A DNA stretch of 52,859 bases from a virus (lineage: Duplodnaviria > Caudoviricetes): positions 1 through 52,859 of IMG/VR virus record IMGVR_UViG_3300011114_000478; one strand, given 5' to 3'. The notes beneath the pieces were generated by a model. The model saw only the letters and a program-made list of their open reading frames with translations, was not told the origin of the DNA and did not search any database. The translations under genes were made by a program, and so were the position numbers. Below are positions 1 through 15,713 of this stretch, piece by piece (the first letter of the stretch is position 1; each line of letters begins with the position of its first letter).

Positions 1-74
1 TTTACCTGAGCGAGTTTTTATTTTTCACAACGAAGGTAAACAAACTGAAATTATAGATAGCAAAGGATTGTTAA

Positions 75-1022
75 GTGGAATTATTGAATAGCGAGCAAAT
101 AGATTTCGAGCAGTATTTGAAACTCACTGAAGCTCACATGAAGGTAAAAGATGCGAGTGTGTTTATCGATGAGCTTAAAGAAGATTTAGCTAACCCTGTT
201 GTTGTAAAGAAGATTGGCATGCCGTGGTCAAAAACCATCAATGAGTTTGACTTTAGAAGCGGTGAGGTTACTTTGTATGCAGGAACTAACGGAAGTGGTA
301 AAAGTTTAATTACAGGTCAAATTGCATTAGGTTTAATTAAGCAGGATCAAAAGGTTTGTATTATGTCTTTTGAGATGAAACCAAAAAGAACTATCTTGCG
401 CATGACTAGACAGTTTAGTGGCACTGACTTAGATAATCCTTTTTTAAAAAATAAGTTAGAAGTAAATAACCAATATCTTGAAAGATTAAAAAAGTTTTCT
501 ACAGGAAAGCTATGGTTATACGATCAACAAGGAACAACAAACTCAAGTCAAGTCATATCTGTTGCAAGATATTGTGCGGTTGAATTAGGCATCACACATA
601 TTTTTGTTGATTCGCTTATGAAATGCGTTGCAGGGGAAGATGATTACAATTCACAAAAAGCTTTTGTGGATGAGCTGACAGCTTTGGCTCGCGATCACAA
701 TGTACACATACATTTAATTCATCATATTAGAAAATTAGTAAGCGAAGAGGTTAAGCCGAACAAAAATGACATCAAGGGCACGGGTGCAATTGCAGATCAA
801 GTAGACAATGTTTTGCTTATGTTTAGAAACAAAGCTAAAGAGCGTAAGATTCGAAATAATGAAACAGTTGAGAATACACCTGATGCAATGTTGATGTGTG
901 AGAAGCAACGTAACGGTGAAGTAGAAGATTGGTATAACTTGTATTATCACAAAGACAGCCAACAATTTATTGAAGATGAAAATGGCGTGCCCATGGCATT
1001 TGATACAGCAGGTGCGTTTTGA
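75..1022 (+). CDS. DnaB/SF4-type replicative helicase
   Basis: Walker A AGTNGSGKS, SFEM, Walker B-like IFVDSL, HHIRK, KGTGAIADQVDNV and CEKQRNGE motifs; GTG start. Confidence 0.9.
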   Translation: MELLNSEQIDFEQYLKLTEAHMKVKDASVFIDELKEDLANPVVVKKIGMPWSKTINEFDFRSGEVTLYAGTNGSGKSLITGQIALGLIKQDQKVCIMSFEMKPKRTILRMTRQFSGTDLDNPFLKNKLEVNNQYLERLKKFSTGKLWLYDQQGTTNSSQVISVARYCAVELGITHIFVDSLMKCVAGEDDYNSQKAFVDELTALARDHNVHIHLIHHIRKLVSEEVKPNKNDIKGTGAIADQVDNVLLMFRNKAKERKIRNNETVENTPDAMLMCEKQRNGEVEDWYNLYYHKDSQQFIEDENGVPMAFDTAGAF

Positions 1023-1279
1023 AAGAATATAACTTTGTAGTTGTGGAAGGCGTAAACAGAGGCAACGAAAGTAAAGAATTTCTTTATCAGTGTTTGGTTC
1101 GAGATGTGATTAAAAAAAGAATCGCTGATAGAGACAAAGCTTTTGAGTTCTTAGCTCGATGGGAAATACATCATAAGGATTCAAAATTAAGGGAAGATGT
1201 ACTTTATCAATGGCAAAGAGGTAACCGAGGGAAGGAGGATGAATGGTATGACCGAGATGATAAACAAACAATTGCTTGA
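1019..1279 (+). CDS. Hypothetical phage protein
   Basis: ORF overlapping the helicase stop by 4 nt (TTG start). Confidence 0.6.
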   Translation: MKEYNFVVVEGVNRGNESKEFLYQCLVRDVIKKRIADRDKAFEFLARWEIHHKDSKLREDVLYQWQRGNRGKEDEWYDRDDKQTIA

Positions 1280-1529
1280 TGCACTAGAGGCAATGTGTGA
1301 GTTATACGTTCCTGAAGACGAAAGTCTTGAGAACGACGCAGTAGCAGGATACGCGATGAATATTTTAGAAACAGCTAAAAAGATTGAAGCTGAGTATAAA
1401 AACAAACCGCTACCTGAAGACGATGTATGGATGTTGGCACAGGATATTAATCCTCATGACCCAATGTATCCAATACATTTTGCAAGAGCAGTTGAACGTA
1501 AACACGGCATAGGAGCTGATAATGGCTGA
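1248..1529 (+). CDS. Hypothetical phage protein
   Basis: AGGAGG at 1233-1238 favours ATG 1248 over the track start 1197. Confidence 0.6.
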   Translation: MTEMINKQLLDALEAMCELYVPEDESLENDAVAGYAMNILETAKKIEAEYKNKPLPEDDVWMLAQDINPHDPMYPIHFARAVERKHGIGADNG

Positions 1530-1782
1530 AGAAGAAAAGAAAGAACCCAAGCTTGTCTTTGATGAGAACACTAAAACATTTTCGTTTGAAAAAGATACGA
1601 TCACTGTTGAAGAACACAATCAAGAGATGCTTAAAACAATGGAAGAGTTTGCTGAGGTGCTAGAGCTTTCTATTTTAAGAGAGCGTGATGCATGCGCTAA
1701 GGTTGCACTCGAACTTAAAAGCGAAGAGATTGCTAAAGCGATTCGTGAGCGCGTACCTGCACAAAGTACGGCGGTGCATTGA
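1522..1782 (+). CDS. Hypothetical phage protein
   Basis: AGGAG upstream; ERDACAK..AIRER motif typical of small phage ORFs. Confidence 0.7.
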   Translation: MAEEEKKEPKLVFDENTKTFSFEKDTITVEEHNQEMLKTMEEFAEVLELSILRERDACAKVALELKSEEIAKAIRERVPAQSTAVH

Positions 1783-2126
1783 TGGAATTAATTCTGCCAT
1801 TCCCGCCGTCAGTTAATACTTATTGGAGAAATTTTCAAGGGCGCATGCTCATATCTAAAAAAGGAAGGGAGTATAGAAAAGCCGTGGCAGACGAAATTAT
1901 TTTACAAAAAGGCAATAAGCATTTAAAAGGCAAAATCAAAATGACCATAGAAGCGTGGAGACCTGACAATCGAAAGCGTGACTTGGATAATTTATTAAAA
2001 GCTCCACTCGATGCATTAACGCATGCGGGTGTGTATGAAGACGACCAATTGATTGTCGATTTAAGAATTTTTTGGGCAGAGGATCAAGCGGGTAAATTAA
2101 AAGTGAAAATTGAGGAGATAGAGTAA
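1782..2126 (+). CDS. rusA: RusA-family Holliday junction resolvase
   Basis: LPFPPSVNTYWR, RKRDLDNLLK..LDAL, EDDQLI motifs. Confidence 0.93.
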   Translation: MELILPFPPSVNTYWRNFQGRMLISKKGREYRKAVADEIILQKGNKHLKGKIKMTIEAWRPDNRKRDLDNLLKAPLDALTHAGVYEDDQLIVDLRIFWAEDQAGKLKVKIEEIE

Positions 2127-2455
2127 TGGAAATTAGAGATCCACACAAAGCGGTTGATTACATTTTAAAGAACGCTAAAGCACACGCTAAAGCAAAAGCT
2201 GAAAGAAATTATTTGGAAGAGTATCGCAAATCTTTAAAAGCAATGTTAATGAAACAATGTTTAGAAACAGCTATTGGCGCACAAGAAAGAGAGGCTTATG
2301 CGCATCCTGAATACAGAGCACTACTTGACGGTATTAAAGTTGCAATGGAAGAGGAAGAGAAGCTTCGATGGGATTTAATTGCCGCGCAAGCAGCGATTGA
2401 TATTTGGAGAACCGAACAATCTAATTTAAGAGCTGAAGGAAAGATAACCATATAA
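2126..2455 (+). CDS. Helical hypothetical phage protein
   Basis: Coupled ORF (TAATG), GGAG RBS. Confidence 0.75.
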   Translation: MEIRDPHKAVDYILKNAKAHAKAKAERNYLEEYRKSLKAMLMKQCLETAIGAQEREAYAHPEYRALLDGIKVAMEEEEKLRWDLIAAQAAIDIWRTEQSNLRAEGKITI

Positions 2456-2667
2456 TGAATACACAAAAATTTTTAGACTTTTCTGAAAAGATTTTCTTTT
2501 TTATTTTAGTCATTCCAATTTATGTTGGATTGCTCGATGCGTTCTTTTTTGCAATCACAGGATATACCTACACAGGCGTTGATTGGACATGGCAACGCAT
2601 ACTTGCTGTGTTGATATTTTATTGCATTCGTTTAGCTCACATATCTTCTAAAAAGGAAAAAAAATGA
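2455..2667 (+). CDS. Small membrane protein
   Basis: Coupled ORF with two hydrophobic segments. Confidence 0.6.
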   Translation: MNTQKFLDFSEKIFFFILVIPIYVGLLDAFFFAITGYTYTGVDWTWQRILAVLIFYCIRLAHISSKKEKK

Positions 2668-2885
2668 TTCAAGAACCAATGAATGAAGTGTCGTTAAGAG
2701 AGTACTACACATCATACACACTCAAAAATAATGTAAACGTAGACTTTGAAAAATTTAAAAACCTTGTAAGACTTATTGAAAGTCATCACGGCATCGATGA
2801 TGACAACGAAGCGCAAGACGCGCTAGAGAATATAGAACATGAAATCATTGCGCGTGCTTGTCGCAATGGCGTCTGTGAAGATTAA
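2664..2885 (+). CDS. Hypothetical protein
   Basis: ATGA overlap, AAGGA RBS. Confidence 0.65.
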   Translation: MIQEPMNEVSLREYYTSYTLKNNVNVDFEKFKNLVRLIESHHGIDDDNEAQDALENIEHEIIARACRNGVCED

Positions 2886-2899
2886 TTAAGGAGAAAATT

Positions 2900-3082
2900 A
2901 TGAGCGGTGCAAAACTAACATTAAAAGCAAATTTTGAAACAGGCGAAGGTGATATTGGAAATATTGATAAGTGGTCAGAGAATGAACCACTTTTAAAGGT
3001 TGACATACTTGGAGATTGGATTGCTTTACTTCAAATAGAATATGATATAGCTCACCAAGAAGCTTTTAGAAAAGAAAATTAA
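2900..3082 (+). CDS. Hypothetical protein
   Basis: AAGGAG RBS. Confidence 0.7.
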   Translation: MSGAKLTLKANFETGEGDIGNIDKWSENEPLLKVDILGDWIALLQIEYDIAHQEAFRKEN

Positions 3083-3084
3083 TC

Positions 3085-3243
3085 ATGGCAGAATTCGTAG
3101 CAGTATTTTTACTTTATACATTCAAAGCTGATTGGTATTGGTGGCTTGCATTCATTCTATTAATTGGTTTTGAAATTTGGGCTGAGTATCGAAAGATCAT
3201 GAGAACTTGGAAGCTTCACAAAACCGCAAAGCAACCTGAATGA
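3085..3243 (+). CDS. 52-aa membrane protein (not in ORF track)
   Basis: MAEFVAVFLLYTFKADWYWWLAFILLIGFEIW...QPE*; fills the gap and overlaps the next start (ATGA). Confidence 0.6.
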   Translation: MAEFVAVFLLYTFKADWYWWLAFILLIGFEIWAEYRKIMRTWKLHKTAKQPE

Positions 3244-3548
3244 CAAGTGATGAAAAGAAACACTTGGATCTTCTTAGTCAGCTTGGTTGCATTGTATGTG
3301 CAAGGCTTGGCTACGGAGCAACTCCTGCGGAAATACACCATCCAAGAATCAAAGCGCGTGGCATCGGGCTCAAGGCATCCCACTACGATGCAATTCCTCT
3401 TTGTGTCGAACACCACAGAGGACAAACAGGAGTGCACGGATTGGGAACCAAAGGGTTTGCTAAGCGCTACGGGTTTGACGAATCCGATTTACTCGAAACC
3501 ACTAAAATCCTTTTGGATCAACTAAAAAAAAATATAATAGGGGGTTGA
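3240..3548 (+). CDS. Ref-like (recombination enhancement) HNH-type Zn nuclease
   Basis: GCIVC...AEIHH...IPLCVEHH...GVH pattern. Confidence 0.8.
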   Translation: MTSDEKKHLDLLSQLGCIVCARLGYGATPAEIHHPRIKARGIGLKASHYDAIPLCVEHHRGQTGVHGLGTKGFAKRYGFDESDLLETTKILLDQLKKNIIGG

Positions 3549-3573
3549 CAAGGGTTTAACTTTGTGTTATACT
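3545..3573 (+). promoter_or_regulatory. Strong sigma70 promoter
   Basis: TTGACA-17 nt-TATACT with extended -10 TG. Confidence 0.85.
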
Positions 3574-3620
3574 TGTATTTAGATCAATGTCGATCTATAA
3601 AAGCGAAAGGAAAGCGAATC

Positions 3621-3875
3621 ATGGCAAGAGTATTAGTGAATCACCATCGCAATGTTGCGATTGAAGTAAGCCGTAAAGATAAATGGACAACTCTCATAAT
3701 GGGTTGGCTTCCACACAAACGTGTCAAGATGCTTAACAGTGAAGTCGATAAAGAATGGGAAGAGTTCCTTGGTTACGACGTTAAGAAAGTTGCAAAGCGT
3801 TTCATGAAACCCGTCAATGGTTGGGTTGAAGACTCAGCTATGGAGGATCTTAAATCAATTGTGAAGGGAGCGTAG
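3621..3875 (+). CDS. Hypothetical protein
   Basis: ATG 3621 follows the promoter and AAAGG; the track start 3564 lies inside the promoter. Confidence 0.7.
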   Translation: MARVLVNHHRNVAIEVSRKDKWTTLIMGWLPHKRVKMLNSEVDKEWEEFLGYDVKKVAKRFMKPVNGWVEDSAMEDLKSIVKGA

Positions 3876-3876
3876 C

Positions 3877-4011
3877 ATGACTCGATTAGAACTGATTGCA
3901 GAAATTTGCAAACGCATGGCGGACGATTTAAAAGAAGACAATGACCGCGCTGAAGAAAAAGAACAACAAAGAGAAGCGCAAAAGAAAATGGATGACGATG
4001 AGATTTATTGA
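3877..4011 (+). CDS. 44-aa charged hypothetical protein (not in ORF track)
   Basis: GGGAG RBS; MTRLELIAEICKRMADDLKED...DDEIY*. Confidence 0.6.
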   Translation: MTRLELIAEICKRMADDLKEDNDRAEEKEQQREAQKKMDDDEIY

Positions 4012-5077
4012 ACTGTTCGCAGGTATTGGTGGCTTTCGCTTAGGGTTGGAACGCGCAGGTCACCAATGCGTTTGGTCTAACGAGATCGAAGATAAAGCGC
4101 GTCGCATATACAAACACAATTTTAAGGACACACCCGATGGAAGAGACGTTAGAGATATTGAACCCGAAGAGATCCCCGATGCAGACCTCCTTGTTGGAGG
4201 ATTCCCATGTGCAACTTTCTCCGTTGCAGGTCGCCGTACAGGTTTCTCTACAGACGATACAAGAGGAACTCTCTTCTTTGAAATCTGCCGAATTGCTAAA
4301 GCAAAACGAATACCATATCTTTTCCTTGAGAACGTCAAAGGATTGCTTAATCACGACCATGGAAGAACTTTTGGAGTCATCCTCGCTACGTTGGATGAAC
4401 TTGGGTATGACGTACAATGGGAATGTGTTAACAGCAAGAATTTCGGAGTCCCGCAGAATCGGGAACGAGTATTTATTGTCGCAAATCTTAGAGACAGAAC
4501 CCGACCAAAAGTATTTCCTATCGGAGAGTGCTATGCAACGGATGGTGGATCGTGCGCAGAAACACAAGGAGAAGGGGAACGGGTTTCAACAAACTATTTA
4601 CCAACGCTCGACGCACACTACTATAAAGGCGGTGGAACTCGGGCAGTCATCGACGAATCAGCAGGACATGTTCGAACAACTCAATGGAGACGAACACACT
4701 TCCGAGACATAAAAGGGAACTACACACCAACGTTGACAGCTAACATGGGTACGGGTGGTAACAATGTACCTTACGTTGAAGTGAAAGCTGTACTTACTCC
4801 ACAGCGCGAAGAGAAAAGACAAAATGGTCGACGCATCAAAGAACACAATGAGCCGTCATTTACAATCACAGCACAAGACAGGCACGGAGTCATCGTAGGA
4901 CAGAAGTTAAGAAAGCTTACACCACTCGAATGCGAACGCTTGCAGTCATTGCCTGATAATTGGACGAAGTGGTATGACGATGGATCGCTCGTATCTGATA
5001 ATCAGCGCTATGAGCGTTGCGGTAGAGCTGTGACGATTAATGTTATTCACGAAATAGGAAAGAGGTTACCACTATGA
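3998..5077 (+). CDS. Cytosine-C5 DNA methyltransferase family enzyme, probable DNA carboxymethyltransferase
   Basis: Motifs I FAGIGG, IV GGFPC, VI ENV, VIII QNRER, IX RKLTPLECERLQ; motif X is GRAV (Arg codon 5024-5026); likely start ATG 3998. Confidence 0.93.
   Translation: MRFIELFAGIGGFRLGLERAGHQCVWSNEIEDKARRIYKHNFKDTPDGRDVRDIEPEEIPDADLLVGGFPCATFSVAGRRTGFSTDDTRGTLFFEICRIAKAKRIPYLFLENVKGLLNHDHGRTFGVILATLDELGYDVQWECVNSKNFGVPQNRERVFIVANLRDRTRPKVFPIGECYATDGGSCAETQGEGERVSTNYLPTLDAHYYKGGGTRAVIDESAGHVRTTQWRRTHFRDIKGNYTPTLTANMGTGGNNVPYVEVKAVLTPQREEKRQNGRRIKEHNEPSFTITAQDRHGVIVGQKLRKLTPLECERLQSLPDNWTKWYDDGSLVSDNQRYERCGRAVTINVIHEIGKRLPL
4137..4712 (+). CDS. Alternative-frame ORF inside the methyltransferase, M.EcoHK31I beta-polypeptide-like
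   Basis: 191-codon +1 frame containing SSLRWMNLGM...LLSQILETEPDQKYFLSE...RA; true start uncertain. Confidence 0.6.
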   Translation: MEETLEILNPKRSPMQTSLLEDSHVQLSPLQVAVQVSLQTIQEELSSLKSAELLKQNEYHIFSLRTSKDCLITTMEELLESSSLRWMNLGMTYNGNVLTARISESRRIGNEYLLSQILETEPDQKYFLSESAMQRMVDRAQKHKEKGNGFQQTIYQRSTHTTIKAVELGQSSTNQQDMFEQLNGDEHTSET

Positions 5078-5715
5078 AGTCATGGAGTTTTGAATCAAGA
5101 GAAGTTGCAGACAAGTTTGATAAGCATGTAAGGGAACAGCTCCCATGGTATGACATGATTACAGACGCGGTTGTTTATATCGCGCGAAACTATTTGACTG
5201 AAGGTAATCGTATTGTTGACATCGGCGCATCGACAGGAAACCTATCACGCAAACTTTTACCACTTGCGAATGAGCGCAAAGGTAAAGTGTTAGCAATAGA
5301 AAAAAGTATGCCTATGATTTGCAAGATGGATGGCATGGAAGACGTAGGCGTGATCCATGGTGACGTGACTGAGATCGATATACCTGAAGCGCAAGTCTAC
5401 ATTTTATTTTTGACGATGATGTTTATACCCGTCGACAAAAGACAAAAGTTACTCGACACACTTCAAGACAAAGTGAAGGTGGGTGGATGTGTGATCATTG
5501 TTGATAAGATATGTGATCACAGTGGATACTTCTCAACGGTCATGAAGCGATTGACATGGCATTGGAAGATACAGCAAGGCGCGGAAGCTGAAGACATTAT
5601 CAATAAAGAGATGTCCCTTGCAGGCGTACAGATCCCGCTCGATAATTATTTTGTTGAGGATGCAAAACAATTTTTTAGGATGGGTGAGTTTGCAGGTTGG
5701 GTGATTGAATATTAA
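5074..5715 (+). CDS. cmoA: CmoA-like class I SAM-dependent enzyme (carboxy-SAM synthase homolog)
   Basis: WSF..VA..FD.HVREQLPWY, DIGASTG, GD, LTMMF, GG.VIIVDK, WK..QG.....I..K..SL.GV; ATGA-coupled to the methyltransferase. Confidence 0.8.
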   Translation: MKSWSFESREVADKFDKHVREQLPWYDMITDAVVYIARNYLTEGNRIVDIGASTGNLSRKLLPLANERKGKVLAIEKSMPMICKMDGMEDVGVIHGDVTEIDIPEAQVYILFLTMMFIPVDKRQKLLDTLQDKVKVGGCVIIVDKICDHSGYFSTVMKRLTWHWKIQQGAEAEDIINKEMSLAGVQIPLDNYFVEDAKQFFRMGEFAGWVIEY

Positions 5716-5727
5716 CTTGGAGGATTT

Positions 5728-5955
5728 ATGATTTTACTTACAGAAAAAGAAAGGCAACTTTTAAAAGAGTCAGCGAGCAACATAAGCATGCATGCATTTC
5801 AAAGGTTAGAACCTCATCAAAGGCGTGCGTATTGGGAAACGCTTGATCGAGCTATTCATTCGATTATGATGACGCATCCTGAAGCATTCAACTCAAAAGC
5901 TGTAGCTGACATGCATGAAAAAATGAAAAACAAACAAGCATACGCGAGGTATTAA
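5728..5955 (+). CDS. Hypothetical protein
   Basis: GGAGG RBS. Confidence 0.7.
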   Translation: MILLTEKERQLLKESASNISMHAFQRLEPHQRRAYWETLDRAIHSIMMTHPEAFNSKAVADMHEKMKNKQAYARY

Positions 5956-6138
5956 ATGGCAACACCAACGGTACACAAAAGCAAACGACACGCTAACCCT
6001 ATGCAAACAAGGAACGGTAAGCCTAAGCTCAAAGCATTCGATTTAAAGAAGCTTTATGAGCTGTTAGAAAAGACTGAGAAAGGTAAGAAGCGCCACAAGA
6101 TAGCAAAAGAGATAGCAAGAAAAACTAGTACAGCTTAA
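5956..6138 (+). CDS. Small basic hypothetical protein
   Basis: GAGG RBS; Lys/Arg-rich 60 aa. Confidence 0.65.
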   Translation: MATPTVHKSKRHANPMQTRNGKPKLKAFDLKKLYELLEKTEKGKKRHKIAKEIARKTSTA

Positions 6139-6225
6139 TGGTTTTCTTGATGTTAACGTGTACACAAAAGAGCAAAATGTAGACATATACACAATGACGT
6201 GTATACTTTTTAGGAGAATTTAAAC

Positions 6226-6297
6226 ATGTGGACAAAACCAACAGCAACAGAGATGCGCTTCGGCTTCGAGGTGACTATGTACGTTATGAACAAGTAA
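6226..6297 (+). CDS. pqqA: Pyrroloquinoline quinone precursor peptide PqqA (not in ORF track)
   Basis: MWTKPTATEMRFGFEVTMYVMNK*, with W..P...RFGFEVTMY (ExxxY) signature; AGGAG at 6212-6216. Confidence 0.97.
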   Translation: MWTKPTATEMRFGFEVTMYVMNK

Positions 6298-6340
6298 GTT
6301 ACATTCGCAGGCTTATTTTTAGCCTATGTGATTGTGTTTA

Positions 6341-6366
6341 AAGGGGAGCTTCGGCTCCCTTTTTTT
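6341..6366 (+). terminator. Rho-independent terminator
   Basis: GGGAGC-TTCG-GCTCCC followed by T7. Confidence 0.92.
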
Positions 6367-6550
6367 GTGTAATATACTACACAAAAAGTTGCACTACATG
6401 AAACCTTCCGAGCTGTCAATATATTACTTTTTTTGAATTAATTCCAAAAATAAAAGACTAATTTGTAAGATTAAGTGCTTGATTTACATACAAAAACAAG
6501 CTTTTTTGCCTGTCAGTAGCTGTAAAGTATAATTTACATGCAAAAAGGCC

Positions 6551-6580
6551 TTGACAAGCCTATATTGTTTAATCTAAAAT
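6551..6580 (+). promoter_or_regulatory. sigma70 promoter (early)
   Basis: TTGACA-18 nt-TAAAAT; 14-bp palindrome CTATCAATTGATAG at 6588-6601. Confidence 0.75.
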
Positions 6581-6636
6581 TACATCACTATCAATTGATA
6601 GATAACTTAAACAACTAAAAACGAAAGCGAATTTAT

Positions 6637-6924
6637 ATGAAAACATTAGAAAAACAAGTAGTAACAACACAAGTAGACACACTAGGTTTACTCTTAGCTC
6701 AAATTGCAGAGCTCGAATCAAAAGCTTCAGCAATCAAACAAGCCCTCAAAGAAGACGGTGCAGGCGTATACGAAGGTTCAATGTTCAAAGCCAACGTCAT
6801 TGTTTCTAACCGTTCAACTGTCGATTTCAAACAAGTATTTGCAGAATGCTCAGTACCTGCTGAAGTTATTGCCCGCAATACTAAAGCACAAGAAATCGTA
6901 ACCGTTAAATTAACTTCAAGATAA
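6637..6924 (+). CDS. Early hypothetical protein
   Basis: First ORF after the promoter; N-terminal coiled coil. Confidence 0.75.
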   Translation: MKTLEKQVVTTQVDTLGLLLAQIAELESKASAIKQALKEDGAGVYEGSMFKANVIVSNRSTVDFKQVFAECSVPAEVIARNTKAQEIVTVKLTSR

Positions 6925-6934
6925 GGGGATCAAC

Positions 6935-7702
6935 ATGAAAACAGTACCATTCGCAGATTTACTTAAAGAAGCTGTAAACAAAGAAGGCGTGTTATCAACA
7001 TGCTACAGCCGATTCCACCAATACAGCATCGGCAATCAATTGTGGTTATGGGGACAAGCTGACGCACGCGGTGAGTGCCTAGGTCCCGTACAAACACTCA
7101 AACAATGGAATACGCTTGGTCGTGCAGTCAAGGCAGGTTCTAAAGCTTACTCCATGCTTATGCCTGTAACAGTTCCAAAGAAGGATGCCAACGGTAAGAA
7201 GATCGAAGGCAAGTTCTCTAAGTTCTTTATGCTCAAGAACTATTGGTTCACAGTGCATCAAACAGAAGGTGACGACTTCAAGGAAGAGACTATCATCCCT
7301 GAGTGGAACAAACAAAAAGCCCTCGAAAAGCTACTCATCAAAGAAAATACTTTTGAGCATGCTGACGGTAATTGCCAAGGTTACGCAAGCTTCCACAGCT
7401 TTGCTGTTAATCCCTTAGCTGTATTGCCACACAAGACAACCTTCCATGAGCTTGCTCACATTGTGTTAGGTCATACCACTGAGCACACCATGGCTGACTC
7501 TGAGATTACGCCAAAGGATATTCGTGAGGTAGAAGCTGAGTCAGTGGCTTACATCCTATGCTCAATCCTTGGCTTAGATGGTTTAGTCGAGTCACGCGGT
7601 TACATTCAACATTGGTTGAAGGATAATCAGATCGACGATAAGTCAGCACAAAAGATATTCACTTGTGCTAATACGATCCTTAACGCAGGAAAGGTAGCAT
7701 AA
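6935..7702 (+). CDS. ardC: ArdC-like protein (ssDNA-binding N-domain plus zincin-like domain)
   Basis: YSIGNQL..., TLKQWNTLGRAVKAGSKA, HELAH, EVEAESVAY, YIQHW. Confidence 0.82.
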   Translation: MKTVPFADLLKEAVNKEGVLSTCYSRFHQYSIGNQLWLWGQADARGECLGPVQTLKQWNTLGRAVKAGSKAYSMLMPVTVPKKDANGKKIEGKFSKFFMLKNYWFTVHQTEGDDFKEETIIPEWNKQKALEKLLIKENTFEHADGNCQGYASFHSFAVNPLAVLPHKTTFHELAHIVLGHTTEHTMADSEITPKDIREVEAESVAYILCSILGLDGLVESRGYIQHWLKDNQIDDKSAQKIFTCANTILNAGKVA

Positions 7703-7712
7703 AGGGTCTTTT

Positions 7713-7790
7713 TAAGCGTTTTGGGACACTTTTGAGGGTTGGGTATAAGGTTACCCGCCCTCGAAGGTAAAAATGGCTCAAAATGGCTTA
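7713..7790 (+). other. Long imperfect RNA/ssDNA hairpin
   Basis: TAAGC/GCTTA, GTTTTGGG/CTCAAAAT, CTTTTGAGGG/CCCTCGAAGG, TGGGTA/TACCCG pair using G-U pairs. Confidence 0.65.
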
Positions 7791-7810
7791 TTTTTAATGT
7801 AAAAAAGTTG

Positions 7811-7838
7811 TTGACAGCACTATTGTTTAATATATAAT
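7811..7838 (+). promoter_or_regulatory. sigma70 promoter (early)
   Basis: TTGACA-16 nt-TATAAT; spacer shares TATTGTTTAAT with the 6551 promoter. Confidence 0.8.
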
Positions 7839-7889
7839 TACACCTACGAACACATTGGTTCGGTTTATTTAAAAGCGAAAGGATTCAAA

Positions 7890-8081
7890 ATGCTATACTA
7901 CGCACTTACTCACAATGAAATATTTGATCTAGGCAATCAACTTTCACCTGCTAATGCAGATCACTTTGCTGTTGACCAATTCAATATTCATCAATCTCCA
8001 AGTGGTTACATAATTGTCAATCACAGAGAACTCGAAGCTATCAAAAACATACTTGACCGACGCGGTGTCGGCGTTTACTAA
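7890..8081 (+). CDS. Hypothetical protein
   Basis: AAGGA RBS after the promoter. Confidence 0.7.
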   Translation: MLYYALTHNEIFDLGNQLSPANADHFAVDQFNIHQSPSGYIIVNHRELEAIKNILDRRGVGVY

Positions 8082-8091
8082 GGAAAAAACC

Positions 8092-8256
8092 ATGGAAGAC
8101 AAAGACTTATCAGTGTTAAAGCGTTATATCGAAAACCGTCAAAAATACGGTTACTCAGACGAAGAGTTGTTTGAGATGCGCGCCTCATTCGGTGAAGACG
8201 AAGAGGTGGTTGACATCTTTACAGGTCAGACGATTGACCTAGGCAGACGATCATGA
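8092..8256 (+). CDS. Small acidic hypothetical protein
   Basis: AAGGA RBS before ATG 8092. Confidence 0.65.
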   Translation: MEDKDLSVLKRYIENRQKYGYSDEELFEMRASFGEDEEVVDIFTGQTIDLGRRS

Positions 8257-8390
8257 GCTTCATGGTCGTTGATGCTGTGACCGACGAAATCGTCGAGAGT
8301 AACTTCGAGTATAGGCATCACGCGGAGTTATTTATCGAGGTGCATGGCAAGGATTATCCTAACGCCGAACTTATCGTGGAGTCAGCATGA
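8253..8390 (+). CDS. 45-aa hypothetical protein (not in ORF track)
   Basis: ATGA overlaps at both ends; MSFMVVDAVTDEIVES... Confidence 0.65.
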   Translation: MSFMVVDAVTDEIVESNFEYRHHAELFIEVHGKDYPNAELIVESA

Positions 8391-8833
8391 AGCGACCAAT
8401 CTATGAGTCACAGGTTGACTTAACACACGAAAACAAAATGAAAACTTTGTTAGAAGCCAAATGGAATTGCACACTTAATAAATTACCACTCAAGTATCAA
8501 CTTGATTGGTTAGCAATGCGTGGCAAAGATCCTATGGCGTTTGTAGAGTTTAAACACCGCGAGAAGCTATCAATTGACGCGTATCCACGCTACATGATTT
8601 CACTTGACAAGTGGATGAAAGCAAAACAGCTATGCAAAGAAGTAGAGATCCCATTCATTATGGTGATCACATTTACTGAGGGTACATACTACGGCGTGTT
8701 TGCACACAATGGCTTGCATGAGGTTACTTATGGTATTGGCGGTCGTTATGATCGAGGTGACGCGCAAGACGTAGAACCTATGATTTATTTACCATTAAAA
8801 AAATTTCATAAAATTGAGGGAGCGACATTATGA
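8387..8833 (+). CDS. PD-(D/E)XK-fold nuclease-like protein
   Basis: YQLDW....AFVEFKHR motif. Confidence 0.6.
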   Translation: MKRPIYESQVDLTHENKMKTLLEAKWNCTLNKLPLKYQLDWLAMRGKDPMAFVEFKHREKLSIDAYPRYMISLDKWMKAKQLCKEVEIPFIMVITFTEGTYYGVFAHNGLHEVTYGIGGRYDRGDAQDVEPMIYLPLKKFHKIEGATL

Positions 8834-9102
8834 TTGGTACAAAAGAAAATATGGTGATTGGTGACATCGTGCGTGCTTATGACTTTGCACCACGCGAAGG
8901 ATGCCCTGATTGTTTTATCATTGGCAAGGTGACCGCAATTGAAGGATCGTTTTTTGTTGCTGACACTTTGATGCGTGTTTGGAACGGCAAAGTCGAACAT
9001 CAAAACAAGCTTGAGAACCACATCAAGCATAGCTTCCGTGCGTTATGCCAAGGCGAAATGGGCTTTGACAAAGAGTATGAGCGTGTTACAATACTAGCAT
9101 GA
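8830..9102 (+). CDS. Hypothetical protein
   Basis: GGGAG RBS, ATGA overlap. Confidence 0.7.
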   Translation: MIGTKENMVIGDIVRAYDFAPREGCPDCFIIGKVTAIEGSFFVADTLMRVWNGKVEHQNKLENHIKHSFRALCQGEMGFDKEYERVTILA

Positions 9103-9281
9103 GTCACCATCATAGATATGTTGGTTTGATTGACGGGGAGAAGATGAGAAGTTTTCACCGCCGTGACGAACTCATGCATTGGTTAAAAGATAAACCCGAA
9201 GCAACTTACATCAAGTATTCAGTAAAGCGTGAGAAAAAAGAAAAGATTGATTTTAACGAATACGAACTAGCGCCTTTCTAA
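9099..9281 (+). CDS. Hypothetical protein
   Basis: ATGA overlap. Confidence 0.6.
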   Translation: MSHHHRYVGLIDGEKMRSFHRRDELMHWLKDKPEATYIKYSVKREKKEKIDFNEYELAPF

Positions 9282-9328
9282 TATTGTTATTGTTTCATGG
9301 TTTATTGTTTATTGTTTATGGTTTATGG
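9282..9328. repeat. Tandem heptamer TTTAT(T/G)G repeats
   Basis: Four exact copies at 9301-9328 plus degenerate copies upstream. Confidence 0.85.
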
Positions 9329-9331
9329 TTG

Positions 9332-9391
9332 GTATTACGTCCGTATAAATCTCGTAATACGTCCGTATAGTTTTCGTAATACGTCCGTATA
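9332..9391. repeat. Three iteron-like direct repeats GTA(A/T)TACGTCCGTATA, 22-bp period
   Basis: Copies start at 9332, 9354 and 9376. Confidence 0.92.
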
Positions 9392-9444
9392 AATTCCCCC
9401 GAAAAGAAAATAAAAACTAAAAACAATTTGTACCTACTTATTGT

Positions 9445-9473
9445 TTGACTTCTCACTATTGTCCGTTTACATT
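9445..9473 (+). promoter_or_regulatory. Possible sigma70 promoter for the terminase operon
   Basis: TTGACT-17 nt-TACATT; spacer shares CACTATTGT with the 7811 promoter. Confidence 0.5.
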
Positions 9474-9483
9474 CTGTTTCATT

Positions 9484-10062
9484 ATGTCAGAGACAGCTAT
9501 CACAAAGAAGAGAGTCGTATCATCTTACGAAAGTAAAGAAGATGATGTAGAGACTCGTGCGTCAGGTAAACAATCTAACAAGGACTCATCAAGCGTTAAC
9601 AAAGGTGGAAGACCTACGCTTTATAGTCTTGAGATTGCTTTGGAGATATGCGATAGGATTGCTGACGGTGAGAGTTTAGTAAAGATTTGCAGTGATCCGA
9701 AGATGCCGAAGAAGACAGCGGTGTACGAGTGGTTGCTACGCCACAAAGAATTTGCGGAGATATATGCGCGCGCGAGGGAAGACCAAGCTGACACATTGGC
9801 CGACGAGATCCACGCAATCAGTGACGAACTCCCTCAACAGATTGTAGACGACAAAGGTAAGACGCGTTATGACAGCGCTTACGTTCAATGGCAAAAGAAT
9901 CGTGTTGACGCTCGTAAGTGGGTGGCCGCGAAGCTTAAACCTAAAAAGTATTCAGACAGGATCGCACACGTTGGTGACAATGAAGCCGACAGCATAAACG
10001 TCAACGTCAACATCTTTGACGAGATGATTAAAAACCTCGAACTAAAAAGGCAAACTAAATGA
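9484..10062 (+). CDS. terS: Terminase small subunit (Sf6 gp1-like)
   Basis: GRPTLYS..IC..IADGESL..IC, YARARE.QAD.LADEI, DARKW.AAKL.PKKY; upstream of terL. Confidence 0.88.
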   Translation: MSETAITKKRVVSSYESKEDDVETRASGKQSNKDSSSVNKGGRPTLYSLEIALEICDRIADGESLVKICSDPKMPKKTAVYEWLLRHKEFAEIYARAREDQADTLADEIHAISDELPQQIVDDKGKTRYDSAYVQWQKNRVDARKWVAAKLKPKKYSDRIAHVGDNEADSINVNVNIFDEMIKNLELKRQTK

Positions 10063-11931: not shown

Positions 11932-12076
11932 ACTAGACGAAAAGTTATACATATGTAAAACATGTAAGCGCACTGAAGACGAGATAGCAAGTTGGTTAGA
12001 TTACACACCAAGCGAACGCAAAGCTGTAATGAAACGCATCAAGGAACGAGATGGGCGTAGCAAAAAAAATAATTGA
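11894..12076 (+). CDS. DUF1289-family Cys4 protein
   Basis: TPC..IC.LD....C..C.RT.DEI..W......ER..V. Confidence 0.8.
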   Translation: MAKIATPCKQICELDEKLYICKTCKRTEDEIASWLDYTPSERKAVMKRIKERDGRSKKNN

Positions 12077-15000: not shown

Positions 15001-15713
15001 TATTTTCACTAAGAGGTCCTGATGGTAAATCACATGTCACTATTGAAGCAAGACCACACTATAGTGCACAACGATGGTACGAAGCAAACGCCGATCTTAT
15101 AAATAGCGATCCATATTTAAAAGAGATTGAGTCAAATGTAGCGATTGGTGACATTGACGCTAAGTATGGAAACAATCCAAGCACTGATGCAGATTATGTT
15201 CGCATCATGTCAAAAGAAATGAAAAGAAAAGGTATTAACCCTGTTGAACCCGCAGGTTACATGAATATTCATCAGATTAAGGGAGGAAAAAACCACCGCC
15301 CTGAGGAAAGATACCAAAAATATATTTCAGACTTTATTCAAAATAATCCTACTAAACATGAAATTGTTGATATACATGAATTAGACAACACAAATCTTAT
15401 GAGCGTGCAAAATATAGCTGACACAGGATTGGTGCCAAAAGACATTCATTTTCATCCTGATGTATTAAAAGCTACAAAAGCAAGAAATCCTAAATACCAT
15501 TATGGCATGTCAGAAGATCAGGAAGAAATGAGATATGACTTATTTAAAGAAGTCGCAAGAGATTTAGCAAGACAAGGTAAGAACTATCTTGACAAAGACG
15601 ACATTCTTAATCACCTAAGAGAAAAATATTTACTACCGAAAAAGAAAAGCGGTGGTTCTATCAACCTAAACCAAGAATATAAACTAGAAAACATGAGGAG
15701 ACGTTATGGCTGA
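12051..15713 (+). CDS. Large multidomain (polyvalent-type) protein with SAM-methyltransferase and PcfJ-like domains
   Basis: DFGAGKG..FEPYP..NVLNV; L.SEGEMMGHCVGG..IFSLR...SHVTIE. Confidence 0.75.
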   Translation: MGVAKKIIEGGLKAVAKKAPRMSEALEPHIGKRLYITQADRTALDYPQGLLGGPGYTELASIDPKYKDIAWAVQGPGVAKTLVGSMARNPEEAVFANLIGSPEQHRSNKVVFDKIMDRFQKAIEEDKLTPELHKTINKRLANIKDPKTGKSFFPEDVDILSPEFEQHANTFHQRAFIADVLAGKGVGGRKGTIIDYPQVIKETTDPLLLEAKTGDIGDRLFSLSGNIEYRPELHPAFHTSLGGRKESEAFAPAPQGIVMKNFIKDFTERTGRMPTYYDLTRGYAPSEKITQEMVERMYKEGYGAGGKVLKKGLKLIEDVAEKVKLPPAENSARTQIVGTMPTYEKARDILSKEGIEGKDVIDFGAGKGLGSTMMKAHSFEPYPQGWYPTYTKSEDIPSNAYKGLLNLNVLNVLDPEMRAHTVKEIGRVMQPEGGTGLITTRGRDVMNTIGGVKGPEPMSVITSRDTYQKGFEPNELREYIKYILGTDFEYEPLNLGPAGVKIKKKAEGGTISDDAEEYGEQLKERRKTLGSDILKSGAKGIKEGLGNIYQSAKETLSRAGTIGDIVEGYGKYGAPMERARYEGITGTKLPEIKPVPYLREQTITESPVGAKIMPLTTGEQQFAGEIIGDPLSYSVSGAGRGLEKFGKFVGKGLAEQVQTGKGLIGRNVINPRMNVIKDQGGMLVGGEKALDDELIAMKKNEAAYPHAQANFTTDQKDPNAVALNNWIDTKVKKYLRNQAGSEADPILKTIESGVEHNFQPTMGDTKYSVRNKRLKVGKPETGIAKTDLGKEFEYKIDSMFDPHSSEEVKAILNDPLPFADPNTAERFRASKLRTEHDLPIENEKDVKALRLLNEIPDKNIYTLSGTNITERLGLNHVSDVLYEDLMSGKLKPEQLNQMSIEKAIRRTAEYDAQKAREMQKAHATSIEGFPVPKAYEDKYKWVELKHETDPKKTAAALKSEGEMMGHCVGGGDYCYDVEHGTAKIFSLRGPDGKSHVTIEARPHYSAQRWYEANADLINSDPYLKEIESNVAIGDIDAKYGNNPSTDADYVRIMSKEMKRKGINPVEPAGYMNIHQIKGGKNHRPEERYQKYISDFIQNNPTKHEIVDIHELDNTNLMSVQNIADTGLVPKDIHFHPDVLKATKARNPKYHYGMSEDQEEMRYDLFKEVARDLARQGKNYLDKDDILNHLREKYLLPKKKSGGSINLNQEYKLENMRRRYG

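What the first reader, a model, noticed from the sequence alone, without database searches (positions are those of the whole stretch)
3998..5715. Candidate DNA carboxymethylation system: C5-MTase with motif X Asn-to-Arg coupled to a CmoA-like enzyme
Seen: the methyltransferase has intact catalytic motifs, but motif X reads RCGRAV (Arg codon AGA 5024-5026) where the family has GN[A/S]V, and its stop overlaps the start of a CmoA-like gene. Established: CmoA makes carboxy-SAM from SAM and prephenate, and changing this motif X Asn to a basic residue (engineered M.MpeI N374K) makes a C5-MTase use carboxy-SAM and form 5-carboxymethylcytosine. Inference: this phage makes its own cofactor and installs 5cxmC or a related adduct as anti-restriction armour. 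I recall a recent report of natural phage systems of this type but cannot verify it here, so novelty may be partial; no obvious further tailoring enzyme is adjacent.
Basis: partly seen in the sequence, partly recalled or inferred. Interest (0 to 1): 0.92.

Follow-up and report, generated by a model that had tools for sequence, protein, structure and literature searches.

The report
Phage DNA carboxymethylation gene pair
Two overlapping phage genes most likely make carboxy-SAM and use it to put carboxymethyl groups on the phage's own cytosines; this kind of system was published in 2025, but the methyltransferase here belongs to a different branch that seems to have evolved the same trick separately.

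Summary
A complete C5-cytosine methyltransferase (3992/3998-5077) has Arg (AGA 5024-5026) where M.HhaI has Asn304. Its stop overlaps (ATGA) the start of a CmoA-like gene (5074-5715).

What is new is the lineage:
- Published CmoX candidates were selected on an 'SPPC' motif plus the Arg. This enzyme has GFPC and is 25% identical to SpCmoX.
- It is about 50% identical over its full length, target-recognition domain included, to ordinary Asn-bearing relatives.
- It carries a second pocket change, Gln82 to Ala in M.HhaI numbering.

In my scans the PCA/GR signature and a CmoA-like neighbour went together:
- 83 of 85 signature loci had the neighbour; the other 2 end just after the methyltransferase.
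- 0 of 173 loci of close relatives without the signature had one.

The 94%-complete phage has no CmoY-type ligase, so bare 5-carboxymethylcytosine is the likely end product. Nothing biochemical was tested. Verdict: a new variant of a known kind, of moderate interest.

The parts
3545..3573 (+). sigma-70-like promoter match (TTGACA, 17 nt spacer, TATACT, with TG) ahead of the gene run 3564-6138 that contains the pair
   Evidence: 11 of 12 hexamer positions match. It is a pattern match only; the number of such sites in 1-10000 (26) is not above shuffles (23.5 +/- 5.2).
3992..5077 (+). C5-cytosine DNA methyltransferase homologue of the GFPC/HhaI-like branch; proposed Cx-SAM-dependent cytosine-5 carboxymethyltransferase. 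Start at 3992 or 3998.
   Evidence: PF00145 E 9.6e-81 and TIGR00675 E 1.5e-85. M.HhaI E 1.5e-51 against SpCmoX 8yf3 E 2.7e-16. Relatives begin MTMRF or MRF, and in L007, L008 and L010 a stop lies 2 codons before the match.
4208..4213 (+). Motif IV catalytic Cys71 (TGT) followed by Ala72 (GCA), at the position of M.HhaI Gln82
   Evidence: Sequence. The alignment puts 'pca' on HhaI 'pcq'. Gln82 lines the transferable-group pocket of M.HhaI (PMC3526304, passages read).
5024..5026 (+). Arg343 codon (AGA) in motif X, at the position of M.HhaI Asn304 and SpCmoX Arg350
   Evidence: In the SpCmoX crystal structure R350 contacts the Cx-SAM carboxymethyl group (PMC12783734).
5074..5715 (+). Short (213 aa) CmoA-like gene; proposed carboxy-SAM synthase. 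Its ATG overlaps the methyltransferase stop (ATGA).
   Evidence: TIGR00740 70.3 bits, best family but below cut-off. PDB 4gek E 8e-14. Foldseek top hits are CmoA 4iwn, 4gek and 1im8 with TM 0.79-0.84. It is 41% identical to the CmoA next to an SPPC-type CmoX in Moraxella phage Mcat8.
6340..6363 (+). Intrinsic-terminator-like hairpin (10 bp stem, T run) after the two small ORFs downstream of the pair; a likely end of the transcription unit
   Evidence: Pattern match only.

Best explanation
The two overlapping genes form a minimal two-enzyme module for carboxymethylating DNA cytosines.

Proposed mechanism:
- The CmoA-like enzyme converts host SAM and prephenate into carboxy-SAM (Cx-SAM).
- The methyltransferase uses the normal C5 mechanism (Cys71 attacks C6 of a flipped-out cytosine) but transfers the carboxymethyl group of Cx-SAM to C5.
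- This works because Arg343 replaces the motif X Asn and can salt-bridge the carboxylate, and Ala72 replaces the motif IV Gln and makes room.

Because this near-complete phage has no CmoY-type amide ligase, 5-carboxymethylcytosine itself is the likely final mark. It would serve as protection against host restriction.

The enzyme is not a member of the published SPPC-type CmoX set. It is a separate branch of HhaI-like methyltransferases that acquired the same cofactor switch, most likely independently.

Shown here: gene anatomy, residue equivalences, lineage placement and strict co-occurrence with CmoA-like genes. Inferred: cofactor use, product, target sequence and biological role.
For: 1. Residue equivalence. 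Arg343 lies on HhaI N304 and on SpCmoX R350. In the SpCmoX crystal structure R350 contacts the Cx-SAM carboxymethyl group, and wild-type SpCmoX accepted only Cx-SAM (PMC12783734). Engineered K or R at the equivalent site gives Cx-SAM use in M.MpeI and M.CviPI (PMC13288465, passages).

2. Second pocket change. Ala72 lies on HhaI Gln82. Gln82, Tyr254 and Asn304 line the transferable-group pocket, and Q82A lowers methyl transfer (PMC3526304, passages).

3. Co-occurrence.
- 80 IMG/VR loci with a 58-99% identical methyltransferase all read YERCGR. 79 of 80 read GGFPCATF; the other is cut at its N-terminus.
- 78 of 80 have a CmoA-like ORF downstream on the same strand. The other 2 loci end 78 and 144 bp after the methyltransferase.
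- Of 98 IMG/VR loci seeded with two Asn-bearing sister representatives, 4 proved to be GFPCAT/GR and exactly those 4 have a CmoA-like ORF. The other 94 have none (89 read GN, 5 unreadable).
- Of 80 cellular-genome loci, only L270 is GFPCAT/GR and only it has a CmoA-like ORF.

4. The signature is a clade trait. All 120 best 90%-clusters have Arg and 118 have GFPCAT. Among 149 50%-representatives, GR occurs only together with GFPCAT.

5. Link to the validated system.
- 8 of the 80 relatives carry an ORF 35-38% identical to SpCmoY between the two genes.
- The window's CmoA is 41% identical to that of Moraxella phage Mcat8, which sits next to an SPPC/GR CmoX.

6. CmoA-likeness.
- The E. coli residues Y39, D62, G64, S66, F137 and K198 are conserved; E164 is Asp, which is allowed in the family (PMC3663124).
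- The fold model (pLDDT 87.7) matches CmoA structures best.
- The biochemically validated SpCmoA also scores below the TIGR00740 cut-off (115.6 bits).
Against: - No chemistry was measured. Everything is comparative.
- The CmoA-like protein scores only 70.3 bits against a 193.3 cut-off. It lacks about the last 35 profile positions (the match ends at 204 of 239).
- By alignment it has Glu, not Arg, at E. coli Arg199. Arg199 is the only residue that contacts the Cx-SAM carboxylate in E. coli CmoA (PMC4482062). The validated SpCmoA shows the same Glu in the same alignment, but it has an Arg four residues later where the window has Ala.
- BelI and CysG methyltransferases match the fold model almost as well as CmoA.
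- The co-occurrence within the GFPC clade is one evolutionary event, so the locus counts are not independent.
- Engineered K/R variants keep SAM activity, so 5mC could also be made.
- CCGG (0 against 43 expected) and GGCC (12 against 53) are strongly avoided in the genome. The modification therefore does not make site avoidance unnecessary.
- The target-recognition domain folded with low confidence (residues 177-303, pLDDT below 50).
Confidence: 0.8

Rival explanations
1. The pair makes 5cxmC only as an intermediate. A further enzyme that is not a CmoY or asparagine-synthetase homologue, from the phage or the host, elaborates the carboxyl group, so the final base is a hypermodified cytosine.
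For: - In S-B43 only the glycine amide, not 5cxmC, was found in virion DNA (PMC12783734).
- 8 of 80 relatives of this methyltransferase have a CmoY-like ligase between the two genes.
- About 6% of the genome may be missing (CheckV 94%).
- Several small ORFs next to the pair (5728-5955, 5956-6138, 3564-3875, 3877-4011) have no family.
Against: - No Asn_synthase hit in the record at E up to 0.1.
- tblastn with SpCmoY and two ligases from relatives gives nothing better than E 4.
- All 20 ORFs of 250 aa or more other than the methyltransferase (the 205-aa small terminase was scanned as well) were run against Pfam and none is a ligase.
- 69 of the 80 relatives have the CmoA-like frame abutting or overlapping the methyltransferase frame, and none of the 80 has a ligase-like ORF outside the 8 noted above.
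Confidence: 0.08
2. The methyltransferase is an ordinary SAM-dependent 5mC enzyme with a tolerated Asn-to-Arg change. The neighbouring gene is an unrelated class I methyltransferase acting on tRNA or a small molecule, or it depletes SAM.
For: - The CmoA-like protein is below the family cut-off and lacks Arg199 by alignment.
- Engineered K/R variants of other C5 enzymes still methylate with SAM.
- Yang et al. themselves raise SAM depletion as a possible side role of CmoA.
Against: - 83 of 85 PCA/GR loci have the neighbour and the other 2 are cut off, against 0 of 173 loci of the nearest relatives without the signature.
- The same Arg beside CmoA recurs in the unrelated SPPC lineage, which is biochemically validated. 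It also recurs in a third lineage (L126 and L127, GSPCQ with LGRSM).
- Q82A lowers methyl transfer in M.HhaI.
- The translationally coupled ATGA overlap argues for a shared function.
Confidence: 0.05
3. The short CmoA variant (213 aa, no Arg199 equivalent, truncated C-terminus) makes a SAM derivative other than carboxy-SAM, and the methyltransferase installs a different anionic group.
For: - Glu at the Arg199 column in 102 of 105 distinct relatives, and Ala, Arg or Ser at the column where SpCmoA has Arg.
- The TIGR00740 match stops at position 204 of 239.
- The fold model matches non-CmoA methyltransferases nearly as well.
Against: - Members of the same methyltransferase clade also pair with long, SpCmoA-like CmoAs (36-38% identity to SpCmoA in L204, L206, L208 and L244). 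The two CmoA types therefore look interchangeable.
- The SAM-binding residues and the proposed base (Asp at E164) are kept.
- SpCmoA, which shares the Lys-Glu pair at this site, does make Cx-SAM.
Confidence: 0.04

Closest known systems
CmoA-CmoX(-CmoY) of Synechococcus phage S-B43 (Yang et al., Nat Commun 2025, PMC12783734; PDB 8YF3)
   Same: - A phage-encoded CmoA homologue sits next to a C5-methyltransferase homologue with Arg at the HhaI N304 position.
- The 'ER.GR' stretch in motif X is the same, and the Gln after the catalytic Cys is lost in both.
- Relatives of the window's enzyme can carry a CmoY-like ligase.
   Different: - The methyltransferases are only 25% identical.
- Motif IV is GFPCA here and SPPCS there, so this enzyme fails the 'SPPC' criterion the authors used to collect 5,615 candidates.
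- The nearest solved relative is M.HhaI here (E 1.5e-51) and M.HaeIII for SpCmoX (E 1.2e-21).
- Gene order is methyltransferase then CmoA with an ATGA overlap; in S-B43 it is CmoA, CmoY, CmoX.
- There is no ligase in this phage.
- The CmoA is a shorter type, 22% identical to SpCmoA.
- The target sequence is unknown here; SpCmoX targets GC.
Ordinary Asn-bearing GFPCQ C5-methyltransferases (M.HhaI and the metagenomic representatives, e.g. P0125)
   Same: - 50% identity over the full length to P0125, including the target-recognition region.
- About 55% identity to M.HhaI over motifs I-VIII, as I read the alignment.
- All catalytic motifs are present.
   Different: Three linked changes: PCQ to PCA, RYK..GN to RYER.GR, and a CmoA-like neighbour. 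None of the 173 loci of relatives without the signature has that neighbour.
Engineered carboxymethyltransferases and pocket-widened enzymes: M.MpeI N374K, M.CviPI Y205K/R, M.HhaI Q82A/Y254S/N304A
   Same: A basic residue at the motif X Asn site gives Cx-SAM use. Replacing Gln82 and Asn304 opens the pocket for larger transferable groups. The window's enzyme naturally combines Ala at 82 with Arg at 304.
   Different: - These are laboratory mutants with other target sites, and they keep SAM activity.
- The natural enzyme comes with its own cofactor synthase.
- The Tyr254 equivalent could not be aligned here.
Bacterial CmoA/CmoB tRNA cmo5U pathway (E. coli b1870/b1871)
   Same: CmoA fold and SAM-binding residues. 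A Cx-SAM synthase is encoded next to the Cx-SAM-using transferase.
   Different: - The acceptor enzyme is a DNA C5-methyltransferase, not CmoB.
- The CmoA here is 34 residues shorter and has Lys-Glu where E. coli has Lys198-Arg199.

Membership tests
CmoX as collected by Yang et al. 2025 (SPPC motif + R350) | C5-cytosine methyltransferase fold with the full catalytic motif set | tested here: met
   PF00145 E 9.6e-81 over positions 1-322 of 324. Motifs I, IV, VI, VIII, IX and X are invariant in A3. Foldseek finds C5-methyltransferases only at the top.
CmoX as collected by Yang et al. 2025 (SPPC motif + R350) | Arg at the position of SpCmoX R350 / HhaI N304 | tested here: met
CmoX as collected by Yang et al. 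2025 (SPPC motif + R350) | 'SPPC' at motif IV (S95 P96 P97 C98) | tested here: not met
   The window has GFPC (residues 68-71), as do 79 of 80 relatives with one unreadable. Whether the authors' supplementary lists nevertheless hold GFPC sequences could not be checked, because supplements are closed.
CmoX as collected by Yang et al. 2025 (SPPC motif + R350) | CmoA homologue in the gene neighbourhood | tested here: met
   Overlapping downstream gene. 78 of 80 relatives have one, and the other 2 are cut off.
CmoX as collected by Yang et al. 2025 (SPPC motif + R350) | Cx-SAM-dependent formation of 5-carboxymethylcytosine | not testable with these tools
   Needs enzyme assay or nucleoside LC-MS.
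CmoA, carboxy-SAM synthase (TIGR00740 / NF011995) | Score above the curated equivalog cut-off | tested here: not met
   70.3 bits against 193.3 and 50.5 against 285. The biochemically validated SpCmoA also fails (115.6 and 102); E. coli CmoA passes (455 and 582). CmoA is still the best-scoring family.
CmoA, carboxy-SAM synthase (TIGR00740 / NF011995) | SAM-contacting residues and the proposed base of E. coli CmoA (Y39, D62, G64, S66, D89, D117, F137, E164) | tested here: met
   Window residues are Y, D, G, S, E, D, F, D. Asp at position 164 is the only alternative seen in the family (PMC3663124). N90 and N132 are not kept, and they are not kept in SpCmoA either.
CmoA, carboxy-SAM synthase (TIGR00740 / NF011995) | Arg199 salt bridge to the Cx-SAM carboxylate | tested here: not met
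   The alignment gives Glu179 at that column, in 102 of 105 relatives and also in SpCmoA; the preceding Lys198 is kept in 103 of 105. This is a sequence alignment only, and no residue-level structural superposition was possible.
CmoA, carboxy-SAM synthase (TIGR00740 / NF011995) | CmoA fold as the best structural match | tested here: met
   4iwn, 4gek and 1im8 rank 1-4 with TM 0.79-0.84. BelI and CysG follow closely.
CmoY amide ligase (asparagine-synthetase homologue) | Presence in the phage | tested here: not met
   No PF00733 hit at E up to 0.1. tblastn best E is 4. No ligase among the large ORFs.
Canonical SAM-dependent C5-methyltransferases (M.HhaI type) | Motif IV Pro-Cys-Gln and motif X Gly-Asn | tested here: not met
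   The window has PCA and GR. 113 of 149 representatives read GN, and 138 of the 149 have Gln after the Pro-Cys.

The most novel reading that the evidence does not exclude
This is a second, independently evolved lineage of natural DNA cytosine carboxymethyltransferase.

- It arose on an HhaI-like scaffold that reached Cx-SAM use by the same pair of pocket changes that protein engineers chose (Gln82 to Ala, Asn304 to Arg), and it converged on the 'ER.GR' motif of the SPPC CmoX enzymes.
- It is abundant in uncultured phages. I saw no close relative among deposited isolate phages (best hit 46.6% identity; motifs of those hits not read).
- It has its own target-recognition domain, and in many members, including this phage, it leaves bare 5cxmC as the final genomic base.
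- Together with a third Arg-bearing lineage next to CmoA (L126 and L127), this would make Cx-SAM use a repeatedly invented trait of phage methyltransferases.
Probability: 0.6. Interest if true: 0.55.

Novelty: new variant of a known kind. Interest (0 to 1): 0.45.

Why it matters
Natural DNA carboxymethylation was reported only in December 2025, and its catalogue was built on one sequence signature (SPPC plus Arg).

- If this GFPC/HhaI-like clade works as proposed, that catalogue misses a large environmental group: 141 IMG/VR stretches and at least 120 protein clusters at 90% identity.
- The cofactor switch would then have arisen more than once. That would give a simple, transferable rule, Ala/Ser after the catalytic Cys plus Arg in motif X, for recognising or engineering such enzymes.
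- A two-gene version without a ligase would also be a natural source of DNA carrying unelaborated 5cxmC. It would bring a new target specificity of practical interest for the sequencing chemistries that already use 5cxmC.

Tried and rejected
- An AU test of whether the data reject one clade of GFPC-GR plus SPPC enzymes did not finish. One search was killed at the time or memory limit, and (a smaller set) returned no answer. Independence therefore rests on the tree and on similarity rankings.
- Methyltransferase-CmoA fusions: none among the 269 proteins held. A 'longer' search with the CmoA-like protein gave 7 longer proteins, none with PF00145.
- Ligase or ParB in the window: none.
- Near-identical DNA in deposited phages: a single 200-nt match at 74%.
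- Target sequence: the target-recognition region did not align to any solved enzyme and folded poorly. Palindrome statistics only show that CCGG and GGCC are avoided and GCGC is not; no target could be assigned.
- Kim et al. 2013 (the CmoA mechanism paper) is not held. The CmoA residue roles come from PMC3663124 and PMC4482062, of which I read passages.
- A direct alignment to M.MpeI N374 was not made, because the PDB search prints only the top alignments, which are all HhaI variants.
- Supplements of Yang et al. could not be opened, so I cannot say whether GFPC-type sequences appear in their lists.
Full report
**What is there.** The window is a whole IMG/VR virus record of 52,859 bp, estimated 94% complete. 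On the + strand an ORF runs to a TGA at 5075-5077. It has homologue-supported starts at 3992 or 3998. The ATG of the next ORF (5074-5715, 213 aa) overlaps that stop as ATGA, with a purine-rich stretch 8-9 nt upstream.

The first protein is a full C5-cytosine methyltransferase:
- PF00145 E 9.6e-81 and TIGR00675 E 1.5e-85.
- All catalytic motifs are present.
- Codon AGA at 5024-5026 encodes Arg343 inside RYERCGRAV.
- In the alignment to M.HhaI this Arg lies on Asn304, and Ala72 (GCA 4211-4213) lies on Gln82, directly after the catalytic Cys.

For the second protein the best family is CmoA, below the cut-off (TIGR00740 70.3 bits against 193.3). Its best solved relatives are E. coli and H. influenzae CmoA.

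**What is already known.** A full-text search finds one paper on natural systems of this type: Yang et al., Nat Commun 2025, PMC12783734 (searches; Results and Discussion read).
- In Synechococcus phage S-B43, SpCmoA makes Cx-SAM from SAM and prephenate.
- SpCmoX, a C5-methyltransferase homologue, makes 5cxmC at GC sites and accepts only Cx-SAM. In its crystal structure (8YF3) Arg350, which replaces HhaI Asn304, contacts the carboxymethyl group.
- SpCmoY ligates glycine to the carboxyl group.
- The authors collected 5,615 candidate CmoX sequences that contain the 'SPPC' motif and R350, of which 4,257 had a CmoA nearby.

**How this locus differs.** The window's enzyme has GFPC, not SPPC, and sits in a different part of the family.
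- It is 25% identical to SpCmoX.
- It is 50% identical over its full length, target-recognition region included, to the Asn-bearing representative P0125.
- M.HhaI is its best solved relative (E 1.5e-51) while 8YF3 scores E 2.7e-16. By fold, HhaI, HaeIII and Dcm-like enzymes all rank above 8YF3, which is rank 19.
- SpCmoX's own best solved relative is M.HaeIII (E 1.2e-21).

I built a quick maximum-likelihood tree of 109 rows. The rows were the window, every ninth of the 120 closest clusters, the 50%-identity representatives of 300-470 aa whose motif X could be read, SpCmoX, the Mcat8 enzyme and three others. Representatives outside those lengths or without a readable motif were left out.
- The Arg-bearing GFPC enzymes form one group of 19 rows with SH-aLRT 100.
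- That group sits next to a 15-row Asn-bearing group, among other Asn-bearing rows.
- The two SPPC enzymes lie across a long branch.

An AU test of a single origin did not finish. The root is not inferred, and no Asn-bearing relatives of the SPPC clade were sampled. Independent origin is therefore the best-supported reading, not a proven one.

**A linked signature.**
- Among the 120 closest clusters, all have Arg and 118 have GFPCAT.
- Among 149 representatives at 50% identity, 113 read GN. The true GR cases (P0121, P0122, P0123, P0142, P0268) all have GFPCAT. One further 'R' (P0148) is a false regex match in a GFPCQ protein.
- The clade differs from its sisters by PCQ to PCA and by RYK..GNAV to RYE[RK].GR[AST]V.
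- The SPPC enzymes I read (S-B43, Mcat8, PaBG, TurkishDelight) have PC followed by S, A or K, and ER.GR.
- The rest of the window's C-terminus (AVTINV) is of the GFPC type, not the SPPC type (MVPPLMM). The shared ER.GR therefore looks like convergence rather than a swapped segment; this is my inference.
- Lukinavicius et al. 2012 (PMC3526304, passages) showed that Gln82, Tyr254 and Asn304 of M.HhaI surround the transferable group, that Q82A lowers methyl transfer, and that N304A favours larger groups.
- A 2026 paper (PMC13288465, passages) showed that K or R at the equivalent site confers Cx-SAM use on M.CviPI.

The natural Ala72/Arg343 pair fits a pocket that is both widened and charged for a carboxymethyl group.

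- Of 80 IMG/VR loci with a 58-99% identical enzyme (the best 80 of 141), all read YERCGR. 78 have a CmoA-like ORF downstream on the same strand, and the other two end 78 and 144 bp after the methyltransferase.
- As a control I seeded scans with two Asn-bearing sister representatives. Of 98 new loci, four proved to be GFPCAT/GR and exactly those four have a CmoA-like ORF. The other 94 have none (89 read GN, 5 unreadable).
- In 80 loci from cellular genomes, only L270 carries GFPCAT/GR and only it has a CmoA-like ORF. L270 is a 23-kb contig of a metagenome bin labelled Nanoarchaeota. The other 79 have none: 38 read GN, and 41 were unreadable at motif X but have PCQ.
- In total, 83 of 85 signature loci had the neighbour with 2 cut off, against 0 of 173 loci without the signature.
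- The loci were not dereplicated, and within the clade this is one inherited trait, so the numbers show a strict clade-level link, not many independent events.
- Independent support comes from the SPPC lineage (published) and from a third lineage, L126 and L127. There a PF00145 enzyme with GSPCQ and 'LGRSM' at motif X follows a CmoA 61% identical to the window's.

**The CmoA-like gene.**
- Against E. coli CmoA (fetched) the window keeps Y39, D62, G64, S66, F137 and K198, and has Asp for E164. Asp is the only alternative reported at that site (PMC3663124, passages).
- It has Glu at the Arg199 column, as do 102 of 105 distinct relatives. Arg199 is the sole contact to the Cx-SAM carboxylate in E. 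coli CmoA (PMC4482062, passages).
- This would count against membership, except that the biochemically validated SpCmoA has the same Lys-Glu pair in the same alignment and also scores below the family cut-off (115.6 bits).
- SpCmoA has an Arg four residues further on. At that column the clade has Ala (46), Arg (35) or Ser (18), and the window has Ala.
- The model of the protein is confident (pLDDT 87.7). It matches CmoA structures best (TM 0.79-0.84), with BelI and CysG methyltransferases close behind.
- Enzymes of the same methyltransferase clade also pair with long, SpCmoA-like CmoAs. The window's CmoA is 41% identical to the one beside the SPPC CmoX of Moraxella phage Mcat8. The CmoA types therefore appear interchangeable partners.
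- Speculation: E. coli CmoA holds its product tightly, and SpCmoA is about ten times faster than E. coli CmoA. Loss of Arg199 in phage enzymes might favour product release.

**No ligase.**
- The record has no Asn_synthase or ParB_N hit.
- tblastn with SpCmoY and two clade ligases finds nothing better than E 4.
- Pfam scans of the 20 ORFs of 250 aa or more other than the methyltransferase, plus the 205-aa small terminase, show a DnaB-like helicase, an ArdC-N-like protein, terminase subunits, capsid, adaptor, SLT and a PD-(D/E)XK nuclease, but no ligase.
- Eight of the 80 relatives carry an ORF 35-38% identical to SpCmoY between the two genes.

The clade therefore exists in two-gene and three-gene forms, and this phage has the two-gene form. 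Bare 5cxmC is the likely end product.

**Context.**
- The pair lies in a same-strand run of small early-type genes, between a promoter-like site at 3545-3573 and a terminator-like hairpin at 6340-6363 (pattern matches only).
- An ArdC-N-like anti-restriction homologue follows at 6935-7702.
- The genome (39.7% G+C) has no CCGG (43 expected from a Markov estimate) and 12 GGCC (53 expected), while GCGC is near expectation (151 against 170).
- The modification therefore does not replace site avoidance. A GC-dinucleotide specificity like SpCmoX's seems less likely, but the target remains unknown.
- The target-recognition region (177-303) folded with pLDDT below 50.

**Verdict.** The new element is a large, uncultured clade of HhaI-like enzymes outside the published SPPC definition.
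- I saw no relative above 47% identity among 1,794 matching phage records. I did not read motif X in those records.
- Of the 21 phage records with a CmoA-like gene, I fetched nine. None of the nine has a GFPCAT methyltransferase beside that gene. Most of the remaining twelve are duplicate records or further Synechococcus and Staphylococcus phages.
- The clade carries the same cofactor-switch signature plus a Gln-to-Ala change, and here it occurs in a minimal two-gene form.

I rate it a new variant of a known kind, with interest 0.45.

Noticed in passing
window 1-52859: Strong avoidance of some palindromes: CCGG 0 (43 expected by a Markov estimate), GGCC 12 (53), GGATCC 0 (14.5), GGTACC 1 (19), GATATC 0 (10.7), CTTAAG 0 (10). 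GCGC, CGCG, AGCT and GATC are near expectation.
   Followed up: partly
window 6935-7702 (+): ArdC N-terminal-domain homologue (PF08401 E 8.8e-11; PHROG 'anti-restriction protein' E 1.7e-14), about 1.2 kb downstream of the pair behind its own promoter-like site. It is a second candidate counter-defence gene.
   Followed up: partly
L151-L158, L161, L162 (IMG/VR) and L269:702-3952 (Gordonia phage Evaa): CmoA-like genes (42-48% identical to the window's; 23% in Evaa) with no C5-methyltransferase in the locus. Instead they follow a 509-536-aa protein with a weak ParB_N match and, in two of the three scanned, a sub-threshold class I methyltransferase match (Methyltransf_23). The gene sits just before the terminase. 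This may be a different Cx-SAM-using enzyme; Yang et al. say they found no non-C5 candidates.
   Followed up: partly
L126:4648-5754 and L127:4648-5754: A third kind of C5-methyltransferase (PF00145 E 2.8e-42; motif IV GSPCQ, motif X 'LGRSM') lies directly downstream of a CmoA 61% identical to the window's. It has Arg at the Asn site but keeps the Gln.
   Followed up: partly
L003:4980-6679 (Staphylococcus phage SPbeta-like): An annotated cmoA sits next to a methyltransferase annotated hhaIM whose motif X aligns as 'VGGVI' (Gly, not Asn or Arg). It is on a very long branch and the alignment is uncertain.
   Followed up: no
L032-L035, L037-L039, L043: Members of the window's methyltransferase clade (about 64-65% identity) with an ORF 35-38% identical to SpCmoY inserted between the methyltransferase and CmoA. 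This is a three-gene form of the same module, in the order X-Y-A.
   Followed up: partly
L270 (contig of a metagenome bin labelled Nanoarchaeota): The only cellular-genome locus of 80 with the GFPCAT/GR enzyme (62% identity) plus a CmoA-like ORF. It may be a viral contig binned with the archaeon, so it gives no reliable host clue.
   Followed up: no
P0271-P0276: Six proteins of 378-823 aa with a C-terminal CmoA-like domain (39-43% identical to the window's) and N-terminal extensions of roughly 170-620 aa with no Pfam match. One is named as from Burkholderia ubonensis.
   Followed up: partly
window 12051-15713 (+): A 1220-aa ORF with only a weak PcfJ-like match (E 1.6e-7), followed by an 843-aa ORF with no family, between the terminase and the capsid genes.
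   Followed up: no
window 4526-4906 (methyltransferase residues 177-303): The target-recognition region is conserved in sequence with Asn-bearing relatives. It aligns to no solved structure and folds with pLDDT below 50.
   Followed up: partly
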